From a virus, in IMG/VR virus record IMGVR_UViG_3300044712_000336, positions 1-64,000 of that record: 64,000 nucleotides of DNA. The stretch is one strand, 5' to 3'. The translations under genes and the position numbers were made by a program. Within the stretch, counting starts at the first letter, position 1. Each line of letters starts with the position of its first letter. The notes below the pieces were generated by a model, which saw only the letters and a program-made list of their open reading frames with translations, was not told the origin of the DNA and ran no database searches. Below are positions 19,825 to 29,155 of this stretch, piece after piece.

Positions 19825-19892
19825 GGACTATATCATAAGATTGATCACTTATGATATTGGAGAATATTGGTTCGAATCCAATTATAGTCCCA
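19825..19892 (+). ncRNA. Truncated tRNA-like element (acceptor stem + T arm + one hairpin)
   Basis: GGACTATA/TATAGTCC 8 bp stem; ATTGG-TTCGAAT-CCAAT T arm; TCATAAG/CTTATGA hairpin; no D arm. Confidence 0.65.
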
Positions 19893-25385: not shown

Positions 25386-25406
25386 TAATTATTAAAAATT
25401 AAAGTT

Positions 25407-25727
25407 ATGTCAAAGTACAAAGAATTAGCTAAAAAAGCAAATGTAGAAGAAAATATTGATCTACAGATTGAGAATAATGAACCTATTTTAAAAGCTGAAA
25501 TTGAGGCTATGGTTCAATCTCAAAAAGCAACAGTTATTCGTGCAAAGAATACATATGATCAAGCTGAAAAAGCTGTAGATAAAGCACGTGGTTATATCAC
25601 TGATAAAGGTAGTGTTTATATTTCCAAAGTAAATGCAGCTAAAGATGCAAGAGATCAAGCAGCAGAAGCATTAAAAATTGCTGAAGAAAATCTTGAGGAT
25701 CTTGAAGAAGAATTAAAATTATTTTAA
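25407..25727 (+). CDS. Coiled-coil hypothetical protein
   Basis: A/E/K-rich heptads. Confidence 0.7.
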   Translation: MSKYKELAKKANVEENIDLQIENNEPILKAEIEAMVQSQKATVIRAKNTYDQAEKAVDKARGYITDKGSVYISKVNAAKDARDQAAEALKIAEENLEDLEEELKLF

Positions 25728-25730
25728 TAA

Positions 25731-26108
25731 ATGAAGAAATTCAAATCTTATTCATTAGTACTCGATATGGGTACTAATGAAATTACCACACAGATTAGTA
25801 ATGGGGTAATGACTATTACTATTACACCATTAATGGAACAAGAAGTAGTTGACGTTCCTTTAGTAGAAAAAGAGCAAGTAAAACCATTAGTAATACCACA
25901 AAAGAAAGGTAGAAATAGGTATTCTTACGAAGTTCTATTAAAAGATGATAAAAACTTTAAAAGAATTGCAAGTAGCTTAAATAGTGTTTCAAGAATTACA
26001 GGAATTATTGCACATAATTTAAACTCAAAATTTGTTTCTACTAAACTTAACAATATAACTGTTAGTAATGGTATATATACATATACTATACTAAGAGTTA
26101 AAGTTTAA
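25731..26108 (+). CDS. Hypothetical protein
   Basis: Operonic ORF. Confidence 0.6.
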   Translation: MKKFKSYSLVLDMGTNEITTQISNGVMTITITPLMEQEVVDVPLVEKEQVKPLVIPQKKGRNRYSYEVLLKDDKNFKRIASSLNSVSRITGIIAHNLNSKFVSTKLNNITVSNGIYTYTILRVKV

Positions 26109-26461
26109 ACGATTGTTTTCTAGGAATAACACTTGTCGTGAGATAACTGTTATTTTGTTATTTATAAATTTAATTTTAAATAAAATGAATAATATACAAA
26201 AGGTAATTGACAGTACAAATGGTAAGTTCACAACTGCTAAATGTGAACATATCTTTACAGAAGATAAACCAGAATCAGATATTATTAATAATGGATCATC
26301 AGTATCAATTGTTGTTGATAAGTTTATTGATGATGATTCTGGTGAAGATACTTGGGAAGTATTAAAATTTAAAAATGAAGATTTAGCATAAAGAAATTAG
26401 GAGATTTAGCTCAGTTGGTTAGAGCATTTACAATTTTTTATAAATAATAATTATTATTTTA

Positions 26462-26493
26462 TTTGCTTTTACTATTAAAATTTGGTAATTTTG
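26462..26493 (+). promoter_or_regulatory. Bacteroidota promoter inside the tRNA insert, upstream of HNH
   Basis: TTTG-N20-TAATTTTG exact consensus. Confidence 0.75.
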
Positions 26494-26533
26494 TAAAAAA
26501 ACTAATAATTAATTAATATTAAAAGCAAATAAA

Positions 26534-27016
26534 ATGAAAATTGAATTACAATTACCTTTTAGTAATGACTATAAAGTTGGTTATATTGTTACAAATAAAG
26601 AAAATAGAAAAATGATTATACTTGTTGATAATTCTAATAGGAAAACATCTACCGCTTATGCAAGATATTTATTATCAGTTAAATTAGGTAGATATTTAGA
26701 AAGTAATGAACAAGCTGATCATATAGATGGAAATAAATGTAATGATTTTATAGATAATTTACAAGTATTAACTGCTATTGAAAACACTAGAAAATATAGA
26801 GTACAATCAAATACTTCTAGGAAAATGATAGAGTTAATATGTCCTATTTGTGGAGTTGTTTTCATAAAAGAACATAATTTATCACATTTAGTAAAAAATA
26901 GTAACTTTACAGTATGTTCAAAAGAATGTCTATATAAAATGTCTTCTTTAAAAAAATCTAAAGAAGAATTAATAGACATAGGTAATAAACAAGTAATTCG
27001 TATATTTAGAAAATAA
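26534..27016 (+). mobile_element. HNH homing endonuclease with C-terminal zinc finger
   Basis: DHIDGNKCNDFIDNLQVLT..EN; CPIC...CSKEC. Confidence 0.88.
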
Positions 27017-27201
27017 AGTCGTAGGTTCGATTCCTACATTCCCCACTAAACAATTATTAACAATTAAAAACAAATTAAAATGATAGAAATAACATGTATT
27101 GGAAATATAACTCATAATGAGTTAGTATATTGTTGGGGTAAATTATTATCATTAGATATGATGTATCCATGTGCTATAGGAACACTTAATAATATTGAAA
27201 T

Positions 27202-27624
27202 ATGCGTACCATTAAATTAGTACTAATATTGATGTTATTAACATCAGTAGTACAAGCACAAATTGTTCCATCATTAGAATTAGGTTATATTAATCAAAAT
27301 TTTAGTGTAATTAATGGATTAAACAGATGGACTACTTATGATACAAAAAGAAGTCCATTGTATTCCATTATTGGATTAGAATATTCTACTCATGGAATAA
27401 ATATTAATACATCTGTAGAAACATGGATGTGTTATAGTGGTAATAAGTATTTCACACCAAAACAAGTTCAATTTAATATAGGTATAAATTATACTTATAA
27501 AATGATTGAATTTGGTTATAAACATTATTGTAATCATGCTATACGTGATTATATTAGTGAAGAGTTTCCATATTACCATGCAGGTGGTGATAAAGTATAT
27601 ATTAAAGTTAAATTTAAAAAATAA
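27202..27624 (+). CDS. Secreted beta-rich protein, possibly a small outer-membrane beta-barrel
   Basis: Signal peptide ending VQA-Q; alternating amphipathic strands; C-terminal YIKVKF. Confidence 0.5.
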   Translation: MRTIKLVLILMLLTSVVQAQIVPSLELGYINQNFSVINGLNRWTTYDTKRSPLYSIIGLEYSTHGININTSVETWMCYSGNKYFTPKQVQFNIGINYTYKMIEFGYKHYCNHAIRDYISEEFPYYHAGGDKVYIKVKFKK

Positions 27625-27629
27625 AAGTT

Positions 27630-29155
27630 ATGAGTTGGTTTAGTAAAGAACTTCCGCAGATTCCACAAAGTGAGATTCCAAGTGAATCTTACAAACAAGT
27701 TGTAGTTAATAATGAAATTGTTTGGATGGGTACTTATGAAAATGAGAATCCAAAACAACCCGATTACACTAACCATCCTGAATTGGATTGGCATAAACAA
27801 GTAACAAATCCAATTGGTGTTTATAGTACTGATCATAAATTAAGGAAATAATGGAAAAATCATGGCGTATTAAAATAGAAGATAAGGTAGAAACACCTAT
27901 CTTTTATCCAGTTACTAAATTAGTAACACTTGAAGAAATTGAAAACAATGTTCCTACAGGAATAATTAAGCAATCTATTTTAAAATTACAAGGTGTTCCT
28001 TCCTTTAAAGGAACATGTAATGATGTAAGAAAGCGTAAAGAGTTTAAATGGAAGTATAAACATACTAAACTTCCAGAATTAGTTGAAGAACCTGAAATTG
28101 TCCAATAATATGGGAAAAGGGTTATTGTTACTATCATTGCTATTAGTAATGATAGTAACTTCTTATATTATATTAAAAGTATTAGCAGGATTATTACTAA
28201 TATTATTTTTAATACTCTTTTTATATGGTACACCTAAACCTTTAAAGTTTAAGAAAGATAGTAAATATCAGACAAACTTTCATTGAATTGTCCTATTGTC
28301 GTGCGAGGTTAAGTTATTGAAACTTAATATTTTACAATTTTATAAAATCGAAAATGTCCTATTAAATTAAAGTATATGAATTTAGAACAAGTTAAAACCA
28401 ATGTCTTAAATGATATTGAAAACGAGATTAGGCGAGTAAGCCCAAATCTCAATTATGAGTATAATCAGTTAGAAGATCTACTTAGAGTAGCATATCGTTA
28501 TTGGGATAAACAAAGTAAAATTCCGAGTGATATACCAAAACAAATGCTAGAGGATTCGGTAGATGAATTTATAGCAAAATATGGTAATATTATCGATAAT
28601 ACCATTGTGTTTAATTGGTTAGTTAAAAACATGAATGCTAGATCTTCCATGATATATAGTAATATACAAAACAGTATTGCTGTAAAGGAAGATAATCATG
28701 TAAGGATTCACAAGATATGTGATAAATTCAATACCCAATTTACTACATTTGAACAATTAAGTAAATATATCAAAAGACTTGAAAAGGAGTACGATGATAT
28801 ATTACTTAATGGTATTACTGTAGTAACTACAGAATCATTAGAAGAGTTATCTAATAAGTTTGGTTTTGTTGAAGATAATACTACTGAGAGGTTTAGTGAA
28901 CTTGTTTCATCACTAAAGGAACAAGAAAAACTAAACAATCAAGTAGAATTACATGATTTTAGTGGTATTATTGTTACTGAAATGAAGGAAAAAAAGTGGT
29001 TTAATGATATTAAACAATTTCCTTCAAATCAAAAACAATTGGAAAAAGTTCATGTTGTTCCTACATATATGAAGTATAAAGGAACACATATTCCTGTATT
29101 CAAGAAGAATAAAATCCAGTATGATTGGAAAGATGTACTTTCGATGTTAAAATAA
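27630..29155 (+). CDS. Run of hypothetical genes (27630-27851, 27851-28108, 28110-28286 TM peptide, 28376-29155)
   Basis: Packed co-oriented ORFs, no recognisable motifs. Confidence 0.55.

What the first reader, a model, noticed from the sequence alone, without database searches (positions are those of the whole stretch)
26400..27045. tRNA halves bracketing an HNH gene that carries its own promoter
Seen: a well-formed tRNA 5' half (acceptor strand, D arm) is followed by about 580 nt holding an exact Bacteroidota promoter and an HNH ORF. The ORF stop codon abuts the 3' half (variable loop, T arm, acceptor strand). The insert replaces the anticodon loop; no group I intron core is visible and the acceptor stem has two mismatches. 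Inference: either a homing endonuclease that invaded the anticodon arm (possibly joining halves of two different tRNAs), or a tmRNA-like arrangement in which a tRNA-like clamp closes an mRNA, or an unusual intron.
Basis: partly seen in the sequence, partly recalled or inferred. Interest (0 to 1): 0.75.

Follow-up and report, generated by a model that had tools for sequence, protein, structure and literature searches.

The report
Homing nuclease gene splitting phage tRNA
A selfish DNA-cutting-enzyme gene with its own promoter has landed in the middle of the only ordinary tRNA gene of an uncultured crAss-like phage and destroyed it; close relatives still carry the tRNA gene whole, so this is a mobile-element scar, not a new kind of RNA.

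Summary
A canonical tRNA 5' part (26400-26424) and 3' part (27018-27045) bracket 593 nt that hold a Bacteroidota-type promoter motif and an intact 160-aa HNH gene (26534-27016).

Contigs of a roughly 90% identical relative, in two runs of one study, join 26424 to 27018 through only 21 other letters. That gives a normal 74-nt tRNA gene with no HNH. Both halves therefore come from one tRNA gene, and the cassette replaced its whole anticodon arm. No splicing could rebuild the tRNA.

No group I/II intron, small ribozyme or tmRNA signal is present. The protein is an I-HmuI-like HNH nuclease. In about 95 loci its homologues sit beside or inside tRNA genes on the same strand. At least eight independent lineages show split tRNAs with perfectly matching halves. 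In one pair the cassette is 99.6% identical inside tRNA halves that are 89-91% identical, which indicates recent homing.

Best reading (0.85): a free-standing homing endonuclease inserted without an intron into a dispensable phage tRNA gene. A leader hairpin hides its start codon in read-through transcripts.

The scan noted this kind of element before on other DNA (216 notes, at least 180 genomes). It is a new variant of a known kind, of moderate interest.

The parts
26400..26424 (+). Retained 5' part of the tRNA gene: acceptor 5' strand GGAGATT, U8-A9, D stem-loop up to the third base of the 3' D-stem strand
   Evidence: Sequence. The alignment of the HNH-free contigs X2 record 10 and X4 record 24 ends exactly at 26424. 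ARAGORN with introns allowed uses it as the 5' exon. Weak Rfam tRNA hit at 26400-26456, 16.6 bits.
26425..27017 (+). Inserted cassette (593 nt) that stands in place of 21 nt (the anticodon arm) of the uninterrupted allele
   Evidence: contigs of a relative join 26424 to 27018 with 21 other letters between them. X4 has zero depth over 26612-27015.
26425..26447 (+). AT-rich hairpin-like stretch (C-A-TTTAC-loop-ATAAA) directly after the D arm. It mimics an anticodon arm but is not the relative's anticodon arm.
   Evidence: Sequence. The relatives' contigs stop aligning at 26424. Origin unresolved: cassette-borne or diverged.
26449..26542 (+). Leader hairpin: 30-nt inverted repeat (26449-26478 and 26513-26542, 90% complementary) whose 3' arm contains the HNH start codon at 26534-26536
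   Evidence: the repeat finder pair I2. RNA fold -22.7 kcal/mol against -9.2 +/- 2.5 for shuffles, z -5.5, 0 of 200 shuffles as good. It also forms in the 647-nt fold.
26462..26493 (+). Bacteroidota-type promoter motif TTTG-N20-TAATTTTG. The -33 element lies in the 5' arm of the leader hairpin and the -7 element in its loop, 41 nt before the ATG.
   Evidence: Pattern search: 7 in the window against 1.9 expected, 0 of 100 shuffles with 7. Use as a promoter is inferred.
26534..27016 (+). Intact HNH (His-Me finger) homing endonuclease gene, 160 aa, I-HmuI-like, with a C-terminal CxxC...CxxxC zinc site
   Evidence: Pfam HNH_3 and phrog_14913. All 16 invariant family residues are present. AF2 pLDDT 95. 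Best PDB match I-HmuI 1u3e: Z 7.8, rmsd 2.9 A, 85 aa. Single copy in the genome.
27018..27045 (+). Retained 3' part of the tRNA gene: end of the variable loop (GTC), T arm GTAGG-TTCGATT-CCTAC, acceptor 3' strand ATTCCCC, discriminator A. It is followed by CTA, so no CCA is encoded.
   Evidence: Sequence. The HNH-free contigs resume aligning at 27018.

Best explanation
This is a free-standing (intron-less) HNH homing endonuclease cassette that inserted into the anticodon arm of the only canonical tRNA gene of a 104.7-kb crAss-like phage. The cassette comprises a leader, a promoter motif and the nuclease gene. It replaced 21 nt with 593 nt.

Shown: the halves are the severed ends of one tRNA gene. 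An uninterrupted allele exists in close relatives. The nuclease gene is intact and belongs to a lineage that lives next to or inside phage tRNA genes. In other phages the same kind of cassette has recently moved into diverged copies of a tRNA gene.

Inferred: the enzyme nicks or cuts the uninterrupted tRNA gene of a co-infecting relative near the anticodon arm. Recombinational repair from the HNH-bearing genome then copies the cassette in. The invaded allele is immune because the target is disrupted.

The tRNA of this phage is dead. The anticodon arm is missing, there are two acceptor mismatches, and no spare tRNA was brought along. The phage tolerates this because phage tRNAs are accessory.

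Expression (inferred): transcripts reading through from upstream fold a 30-bp leader hairpin that buries the AUG. Transcripts starting at the cassette's own promoter, which lies inside that hairpin, lack the 5' arm and can be translated. This is the strategy documented for T4 gene e, I-TevI and Aeh1 mobE.
For: (1) Empty site. X2 record 10 (301 nt) aligns to 26303-26424, then has 21 letters, then aligns to 27018-27175. X4 record 24 (1090 nt) does the same, with 146 and 917 nt of flank. X3 record 14 aligns to 26424 and then runs on unlike the window. The sum 25+21+28 = 74 nt. The GAG-to-GTC spacing of 21 nt is exactly that of ordinary tRNAs with the same D and T arms.
(2) Family context. In the 56 viral loci analysed and 39 of the metagenome loci analysed, the HNH lies on the same strand as flanking tRNAs and mostly within tens of nt of one. 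Orphan 5' halves upstream and 3' halves downstream recur.
(3) Split tRNAs with matching halves. L046/L103, L073/L075, L074, L076 and L082 have 7/7 acceptor pairs (L103 6/7) and complementary anticodon stems; in L073/L075, L076 and L082 the HNH stop TAA falls on anticodon-loop positions 36-38. L036, L050 and L088/L091 enclose the HNH plus a whole spare tRNA. A strict scan finds 9 loci against 1.4 expected, maximum 5 in 200 permutations. Chance 7/7 pairing is 0.5%.
(4) Mobility. L046 against L103: leader plus ORF have 2 differences in 462 nt, the tRNA halves are 89-91% identical, and the outer flanks are about 52% identical.
(5) Enzyme. HNH_3, invariant D62-H63...N75, zinc cysteines, I-HmuI-like fold.
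(6) No ribozyme in this insert or in 8 split relatives.
(7) Leader hairpin and promoter. The paradigm is described in PMC3014915.
(8) Precedent. SegB recognises the T-arm motif of tRNA genes and drives inheritance of the T4 tRNA region (PMC2330249).
Against: No cleavage activity, target site or transcript has been observed. The sequence of the 21 nt in the empty allele was not returned, so the tRNA's identity and the exact junctions are unknown. The HNH-free contigs are short Logan assemblies; X2 and X4 belong to one study, and X3 is only partial. The window's cassette has no close (>54% aa) relative whose flanks I could read, so recent mobility is shown for cousins and not for this copy. The halves are still well preserved, which fits a recent event but would also fit some use of the halves. 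Promoter use and the hairpin switch are inferred from sequence only.
Confidence: 0.85

Rival explanations
1. Ribozyme-less tRNA intron. The insert is removed at the RNA level by host or phage proteins (an endonuclease plus an RtcB-type ligase, or RNase P/Z trimming) and the halves are rejoined into a working tRNA. The HNH would then be an intron-borne homing enzyme.
For: In cousins (L073/75, L074, L076, L082) the insert sits cleanly inside the anticodon loop, so that its removal restores a 7-nt CUCAUAA loop, and both halves are perfect. Lak megaphages of Prevotella carry unexplained 'enigmatic' tRNA introns with presence/absence polymorphism (PMC6784885). ARAGORN with introns allowed returns a cloverleaf for the window.
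Against: In the window, 21 nt of the real tRNA are absent. ARAGORN's product has only 19 nt between 26424 and 27018, a 3-nt variable loop, a C31/A39 mismatch and two acceptor mismatches. It uses ORF codons (RIFRK*) that are conserved as protein in homologues. No ribozyme was found. No RtcB or Rnl2 ligase gene was detected in the phage. Many relatives restore a whole tRNA by duplicating a half or carrying a spare, which efficient splicing would make unnecessary. The clean junctions and perfect halves are explained by recent homing.
Confidence: 0.04
2. tRNA-like clamp on an mRNA (tmRNA-like or a processing signal). The two halves pair in the transcript to form an acceptor/T-arm minihelix that recruits RNase P, RNase Z or the CCA enzyme to trim or stabilise the HNH message.
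For: The D and T hairpins fold locally, and the minimum-energy fold of 26400-27046 pairs four end bases. The same phage has many stem-closed RNA modules, a twister and a hammerhead-like element upstream (earlier notes).
Against: The end pairing is absent from the centroid structure, and the acceptor has only 5 of 7 pairs. ARAGORN finds no tmRNA, and the Rfam tmRNA hit is the T arm alone at 10.6 bits. The cassette's own promoter lies downstream of the 5' half, so its transcripts would lack that half. Relatives of the phage have a plain tRNA here.
Confidence: 0.04
3. Remnants of two neighbouring tRNA genes. The HNH sat between tRNA-X and tRNA-Y, as is usual for this family, and deletions removed the 3' half of X and the 5' half of Y.
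For: Many homologues lie between two whole tRNAs. The acceptor strands match no better than chance (5/7, p about 0.16).
Against: The HNH-free allele has both halves in one gene of normal length at the same locus, between the same flanking genes.
Confidence: 0.02
4. Domesticated nuclease. The HNH no longer homes but serves the phage, for example against co-infecting relatives or in DNA processing, and the tRNA scar is incidental.
For: The gene is intact with all invariant residues and a confident fold. It is the only copy in the genome. It has regulated expression signals.
Against: Presence/absence polymorphism among close relatives and family-wide mobility are the marks of a selfish element. 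No linked partner genes were seen.
Confidence: 0.05

Closest known systems
Phage T4 SegB, a free-standing GIY-YIG homing endonuclease in the tRNA gene cluster (PMC2330249)
   Same: A free-standing nuclease gene embedded among phage tRNA genes. It recognises conserved tRNA-gene sequence (the T-arm motif GGTTCRANTCC) and drives its own inheritance and that of its flanks in mixed infection. Expression is kept low by RNA structure or processing.
   Different: It belongs to a different nuclease superfamily (GIY-YIG, not HNH). segB lies between tRNA genes and does not sit inside one. No severed tRNA halves are described.
[quoted passage not shown] 2004, as cited in PMC2330249 and PMC10644984)
   Same: HNH-type site-specific nucleases whose ORFs lie in a phage tRNA cluster. 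They vary in presence among T5-like phages.
   Different: I could not read the original paper. Nothing I read says they interrupt a tRNA gene. Sequence relatedness to this protein was not tested.
I-HmuI, HNH nicking homing endonuclease of Bacillus phage SPO1 (PDB 1u3e)
   Same: Best structural match: N-terminal beta-sheet DNA-binding module plus the HNH core (Z 7.8, rmsd 2.9 A over 85 residues).
   Different: I-HmuI is encoded inside a self-splicing group I intron of a DNA polymerase gene. Here there is no intron and the host gene is a tRNA. Sequence identity is only about 19%. The C-terminal zinc module differs.
[quoted passage not shown]
   Same: A free-standing HNH gene sits inside another gene without an intron and splits it. 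An RNA hairpin sequesters its ribosome binding site.
   Different: The split nrdA halves still make a working enzyme as two polypeptides. A tRNA cut through its anticodon arm cannot work that way.
'Enigmatic' introns in tRNA genes of Lak megaphages of Prevotella (Devoto et al. 2019, PMC6784885)
   Same: Insertions in the tRNA genes of phages of Bacteroidota, present or absent between related genomes, with no recognised ribozyme. One insert contains a tRNA-like sequence, like the spare-tRNA cassettes in L036/L050.
   Different: That paper mentions no HNH or homing gene ('hnh' and 'homing' occur 0 times in its main text), and its inserts are described as introns. Here a full nuclease gene is present and the anticodon arm is lost.
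Group I introns in bacterial tRNA anticodon loops, e.g. Azoarcus pre-tRNA-Ile (PMC13168695)
   Same: An insertion in the anticodon region of a bacterial-type tRNA gene.
   Different: Those are roughly 200-nt self-splicing ribozymes without an ORF. No group I core is detectable here.
Annotated homologues in cultured jumbo phages: Pectobacterium phage CBB CBB_420 and Yersinia phage fHe-Yen9-04 g417
   Same: Same protein family (45-46% aa identity). CBB_420 starts 26 nt after tRNA-Met CBB_tRNA7A and is followed by an unannotated orphan tRNA 3' half.
   Different: There a whole tRNA is kept next to the nuclease. The records annotate only 'HNH endonuclease' and do not mention tRNA remnants.

Membership tests
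HNH (His-Me finger) endonuclease, Pfam HNH_3 / I-HmuI-like | Profile match above the curated threshold | tested here: met
   PF13392 at 29.6 bits against a cut-off of 24.8, E 5e-7. phrog_14913 'HNH endonuclease' at 8e-41 over residues 1-138.
HNH (His-Me finger) endonuclease, Pfam HNH_3 / I-HmuI-like | Catalytic D-H ... N motif and beta-beta-alpha-metal fold | tested here: met
   D62, H63, N75, Q77 and K87 are invariant in 21 homologues. The model has pLDDT 95. I-HmuI 1u3e gives Z 7.8, rmsd 2.9 A, 85 aa; I-PpoI gives Z 5.3-5.6.
HNH (His-Me finger) endonuclease, Pfam HNH_3 / I-HmuI-like | Site-specific DNA nicking or cleavage | not testable with these tools
   Needs purified protein and the HNH-free allele as substrate.
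Free-standing homing endonuclease gene (intron-less homing) | Presence/absence polymorphism at one locus among close relatives, with an intact target in the empty allele | tested here: met
   X2 record 10 and X4 record 24 bridge 26424 to 27018 with 21 nt, giving a 74-nt tRNA gene. Flank identity is about 90-95%.
Free-standing homing endonuclease gene (intron-less homing) | Cassette much more similar between genomes than its flanks (recent lateral spread) | tested here: inconclusive
   Met for cousins L046/L103: 99.6% in the cassette, 89-91% in the tRNA halves, about 52% beyond. It could not be tested for the window's own copy, because the nearest homologue is 54% aa identical and its contig could not be fetched.
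Free-standing homing endonuclease gene (intron-less homing) | Enzyme cuts the empty allele and is copied in by repair | not testable with these tools
   Requires cleavage mapping and co-infection or plasmid homing assays.
Group I (or II) self-splicing intron in a tRNA gene | Conserved catalytic core detectable by a covariance model | tested here: not met
   No Intron_gpI/gpII hit at E up to 10 in 25900-27600. None inside the inserts of 8 split relatives at E up to 0.1.
Group I (or II) self-splicing intron in a tRNA gene | Exons that rejoin to a complete, foldable tRNA | tested here: not met
   The 21 nt that form the anticodon arm in the empty allele are not alignable to the window. ARAGORN's joined product is 2 nt short, with a 3-nt variable loop and three mismatched pairs.
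tmRNA / tmRNA-like | tRNA-like domain closed by the 5' and 3' ends plus an internal tag reading frame without a start codon, recognised by ARAGORN or Rfam | tested here: not met
   ARAGORN -m at lowered threshold finds nothing. Rfam tmRNA matches only model positions 346-363 at 10.6 bits. The inner ORF is a complete ATG-started nuclease. The end helix is absent from the centroid fold.
Split or permuted tRNA genes joined at the RNA level (archaeal type) | Halves that together supply every part of the cloverleaf, plus a splicing endonuclease or ligase | tested here: not met
   The 3' strand of the anticodon stem and the loop are missing. No RtcB or Rnl2-type ligase was found in the 104.7-kb genome. 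The T4 Rnl1 search was uninformative because its control rang nowhere.

The most novel reading that the evidence does not exclude
The bracketing halves are not inert. In this HNH lineage, tRNA genes cut cleanly in the anticodon loop (as in L073-L076 and L082) would be rejoined by a protein-only route, for example host nucleases plus RtcB. That would make these the first ribozyme-less, homing-endonuclease-bearing tRNA introns of bacterial viruses. The window's copy would be a degenerate member whose end-paired halves now only act as a tRNA-like processing or stabilising clamp on the nuclease mRNA.
Probability: 0.05. Interest if true: 0.85.

Novelty: new variant of a known kind. Interest (0 to 1): 0.42.

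Why it matters
Homing endonucleases normally avoid harming their host by hiding in self-splicing introns or inteins, or between genes. This case is backed by an empty allele and by dozens of related loci. It shows a lineage of I-HmuI-like HNH genes that goes straight into phage tRNA genes with no intron.

In some loci the tRNA is sacrificed, as here. In others a half is duplicated or a spare tRNA is carried along. This explains orphan tRNA halves, and 'tRNAs with long introns', that gene finders report in phage genomes. It gives a mechanism for turnover and shuffling of phage tRNA repertoires. It also offers natural nucleases whose targets are conserved tRNA-gene sequence.

For this phage the practical point is annotation. 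The locus is a tRNA pseudogene plus a mobile nuclease gene, not a new RNA class. The leader hairpin with a promoter inside it suggests that the T4-style read-through-silent, own-promoter-active control of selfish nucleases also operates with Bacteroidota-type promoters.

Tried and rejected
- Exact searches for either half in IMG/VR found nothing.
- The flanking 545-aa and 259-aa proteins have no relatives in IMG/VR by pattern search or in GenBank phages by tblastn. Synteny-based empty-site comparison therefore failed, and the empty site came from read laying instead.
- A single-protein scan for the HNH in IMG/VR found nothing; the alignment-based scan worked.
- A pattern scan for tRNAs with the same D and T arms gave Met, Thr and Asn tRNAs of other phages but none with this acceptor stem. 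The tRNA's identity stays unknown.
- No RNA holder was listed among sequencing runs. This is not evidence on expression.
- Read laying did not print the 21 letters of the empty allele. The single 5c row (X4, 16 letters between 27035 and 26407) is a different contig and remains unexplained.
- The PDB sequence search gave only spurious low-complexity hits.
- ARAGORN's anticodon calls for intron-containing models ('Ser aga' and others) are arbitrary and were not used.
- An alternative weak 'tRNA-Arg(tcg)' at 26963-27046, overlapping the ORF end and found at 80% threshold, was considered as a decayed replacement tRNA. It was rejected because of its poor D arm, 13-nt variable loop and 5/7 acceptor pairing in 22% GC sequence.
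- RtcB and Rnl2 families were not found in the phage. The Rnl1 search was uninformative.
- Literature searches for interrupted, disrupted or split tRNA genes together with HNH in phages returned nothing. Pope et al. 2014 (PMC3958112) is not held.
Full report
**What the window is.** The window is the first 64 kb of a complete 104,710-bp virus record with direct terminal repeats and 26% G+C. Its portal, large terminase and major head proteins match the PHROG families phrog_6547, phrog_6681 and phrog_11589. I take it to be crAss-like from the genome size, the terminal repeats and earlier notes on this genome. The likely source sample is a rhizosphere metagenome. Apart from the locus studied here, the whole genome has only one weak tRNA-like hit: a D-arm-less element at 19826-19890, 26.3 bits, below the Rfam threshold.

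At 26400 the sequence reads GGAGATT-TA-GCTC-AGTTGGTTA-GAGC, with the usual tRNA hallmarks. The ORF at 26534-27016 encodes a 160-aa protein that matches Pfam HNH_3 above its cut-off and phrog_14913 at 8e-41. One base after the stop codon comes GTC-GTAGG-TTCGATT-CCTAC-ATTCCCC-A.
- Default ARAGORN finds no tRNA in the window. With introns allowed it joins the two halves across 574 nt.
- The acceptor strands pair at 5 of 7 positions. In a control with 184 real phage tRNAs, 16% of non-cognate combinations do as well, so this pairing alone proves nothing.
- The motif TTTG-N20-TAATTTTG at 26462-26493 is one of 7 in the window against 1.9 expected.
- Rfam gives no intron or ribozyme hit at E up to 10. 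It gives only a 16.6-bit tRNA hit on the 5' half and a 10.6-bit tmRNA hit on the T arm.

**The decisive result is an empty allele.** I laid public assemblies on 25400-28400 and found contigs of a close relative (about 90-95% identical in the flanks) that lack the HNH.
- X2 record 10 (301 nt) aligns to 26303-26424, then carries 21 other letters, then aligns to 27018-27175.
- X4 record 24 (1090 nt) does the same, with 146 nt and 917 nt of flank.
- A 154-nt contig from a third run, of a different study (X3), aligns up to 26424 and then continues with 32 letters unlike the window.

The sum 25 + 21 + 28 nt is a 74-nt gene. In ordinary phage tRNAs with identical D and T arms, the distance from GAG to GTC is also exactly 21 nt. 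Three things follow:
- The two halves belong to one tRNA gene, not two.
- In the window, 593 nt (26425-27017) stand where the 21-nt anticodon arm should be.
- The relative's contigs do not align beyond 26424. The anticodon-arm-like hairpin after the D arm is therefore not the original arm, and ARAGORN's spliced model is a by-product of AT-rich sequence. That model has 19 nt instead of 21 nt and a 3-nt variable loop, and it uses the conserved C-terminal codons RIFRK*.

No RNA-level joining could restore this tRNA.

**The nuclease.** The protein keeps all 16 residues that are invariant across 21 homologues. These include D62-H63, N75 and four cysteines of a C-terminal zinc site. It folds with mean pLDDT 95. 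Its best solved relative is I-HmuI, the HNH nicking homing endonuclease of phage SPO1 (Foldseek probability 1.0; VIA Z 7.8, rmsd 2.9 A over 85 residues), followed by I-PpoI. It is the only copy in the genome.

**The family lives in tRNA genes.** An alignment-based scan returned 67 loci from IMG/VR and 80 from metagenomes. I analysed 56 of the viral loci and 39 of the metagenome loci. In nearly all of them the HNH lies on the same strand as neighbouring tRNAs, usually within tens of bases of one. The neighbours are often tRNA(CAU), Arg(UCU), Ile(UAU) or Leu(UAA). Reading the flanks showed four recurrent layouts:
- (a) An orphan 5' half, then the HNH, then a whole tRNA that the ORF runs into. 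In about ten loci the ORF overlaps the tRNA by exactly 10 nt, so its stop codon falls at tRNA positions 8-10.
- (b) A whole tRNA, the HNH, then an orphan 3' half. Phage CBB is a cultured example.
- (c) A 5' half, the HNH and a 3' half only, as in the window, but with perfect halves. These are L046/L103, L073/L075, L074, L076 and L082. They have 7/7 acceptor pairs (L103 6/7) and complementary anticodon stems, and in L073/L075, L076 and L082 the stop TAA falls on anticodon-loop positions 36-38.
- (d) A split tRNA enclosing the HNH plus a complete spare tRNA (L036, L050, L088/L091).

A strict automatic scan finds 9 loci whose downstream acceptor strand pairs with an orphan D-arm-bearing 5' half upstream. 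When upstream regions are swapped among loci the mean is 1.4 and the maximum 5. Chance 7/7 pairing is 0.5%.

**Mobility is visible.** Between L046 and L103 the leader and HNH ORF differ at 2 of 462 positions. The tRNA halves around them are only 89-91% identical, and the sequence beyond is about 52% identical. One cassette has recently entered two diverged versions of a tRNA gene. This also explains why many halves are still perfect without any need for function. None of eight split loci has a group I/II or small-ribozyme hit inside the insert.

**How it most likely works.**
- Shown: insertion, an empty allele, an intact I-HmuI-like nuclease, and lineage-wide association with and movement into tRNA genes.
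- Inferred: the enzyme nicks or cuts uninterrupted tRNA genes near the anticodon arm in co-infecting relatives, and repair copies the cassette in. The conserved D-arm and T-arm sequences probably help by supplying homology.

The closest experimentally studied analogue is T4 SegB. It recognises the T-arm motif of tRNA genes and drives inheritance of the tRNA region (PMC2330249). HNH nucleases also lie in the T5 tRNA cluster. Aeh1 mobE is an HNH gene that splits a protein gene without an intron.

The window's copy brought no spare tRNA and lost the anticodon arm, so the phage's only ordinary tRNA gene is a pseudogene.

**Expression.** A 30-nt inverted repeat (26449-26478 and 26513-26542, 90% complementary) folds at -22.7 kcal/mol against -9.2 +/- 2.5 for shuffles, and it contains the AUG. 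The promoter motif lies inside it: the -33 element in the 5' arm and the -7 element in the loop. Read-through transcripts should therefore hide the start codon, while transcripts from the cassette's own promoter should expose it. The same logic is documented for T4 gene e, I-TevI and mobE (PMC3014915). This step is inference.

**Rivals.**
- A protein-dependent intron cannot be excluded for the clean cousins. The 'enigmatic' tRNA introns of Lak megaphages are a published oddity of the same flavour (PMC6784885). The window cannot yield a tRNA, and I detected no RtcB or Rnl2 ligase gene in the phage.
- The tmRNA-like clamp fails ARAGORN and Rfam. Its helix is absent from the centroid fold.
- The two-tRNA origin is contradicted.

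**Standing.** The scan has already noted HNH cassettes splitting phage tRNA genes in many other genomes (216 notes in at least 180 genomes). My independent results agree with those follow-ups. In the papers I could search I found no description of HNH genes sitting inside phage tRNA genes. I therefore class it as a new variant of a known kind (free-standing homing endonucleases of phage tRNA regions). This particular copy is an ordinary, somewhat decayed member.

Noticed in passing
L002, L005, L016, L020, L026, L028, L031, L042, L047/L048 (3' end of the HNH ORF): In about ten loci the HNH ORF overlaps the downstream whole tRNA gene by exactly 10 nt, so its stop codon falls at tRNA positions 8-10 (mostly TAG = U8-A9-G10; TAA in L020 and L031, TGA in L042). 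In other loci the stop is the anticodon-loop TAA. The nuclease gene is built into the tRNA gene's own sequence.
   Followed up: partly
L012/L013 2974-3061, L028 2923-3013, L037, L040, L041, L069, L070 2935-3032: A recurrent, unusually long (about 88-98 nt) phage tRNA with a UAU anticodon loop (CTTATA...) and a conserved long variable arm (...AGC-N-GTCTAGATAAG-N-GTAA) sits directly after HNH homologues. ARAGORN calls it Ile(tat), miscalls it, or misses it. Long variable arms are not expected for Ile tRNAs.
   Followed up: no
window 26407 / 27035 (run X4, read-laying table 5c): A separate X4 contig (depth 17.2) joins 27035 back to 26407 through 16 letters. Read on the + strand, these look like a 3' acceptor strand followed at once by a complementary 5' acceptor strand. 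That would mean a T arm followed by a D arm, as in a permuted or zero-spacer tandem tRNA. It is probably another organism's tRNA and is unexplained.
   Followed up: no
window 26313-26524 and 26531 onward (runs X4, X2): The loose ends hint at contigs that match the window as far as the leader (up to 26524) and then diverge just before the HNH start codon. X2 also has a contig that matches from 26531 on, preceded by a different leader. The leader and the nuclease ORF may be exchanged as separate modules (table 7).
   Followed up: no
window 26464-26476 vs L070/L006 about 2480-2495: The window's leader shares a 13-nt identical stretch, TTGCTTTTACTAT, with the leader of the HNH cassettes in L070 (human gut contig) and L006. 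Their proteins are only about 50% identical to the window's. In L006 and L070 the hairpin just after the orphan D arm shows a compensatory G-C to A-T change.
   Followed up: partly
window 19826-19890: The only Rfam tRNA hit in the whole 104.7-kb genome (26.3 bits, below threshold). It is a D-arm-less tRNA-like element with an 8-bp acceptor stem and a perfect T arm. Others have already noted it in this scan.
   Followed up: no
L091 4218-4646; L074 683-1098: There is a group I intron-like hit (38.6 bits, below the threshold of 50) about 1 kb downstream of the HNH/tRNA cluster in L091. There is a full tmRNA gene (92.5 bits) upstream of the split tRNA in L074.
   Followed up: no
L165 (Yersinia phage fHe-Yen9-04) just upstream of g417; L164 (phage CBB) just downstream of CBB_420: The GenBank records of cultured jumbo phages leave two features unannotated: a tRNA(CAU)-like gene with an odd D arm directly before the HNH (fHe-Yen9-04), and an orphan tRNA 3' half directly after it (CBB).
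   Followed up: partly
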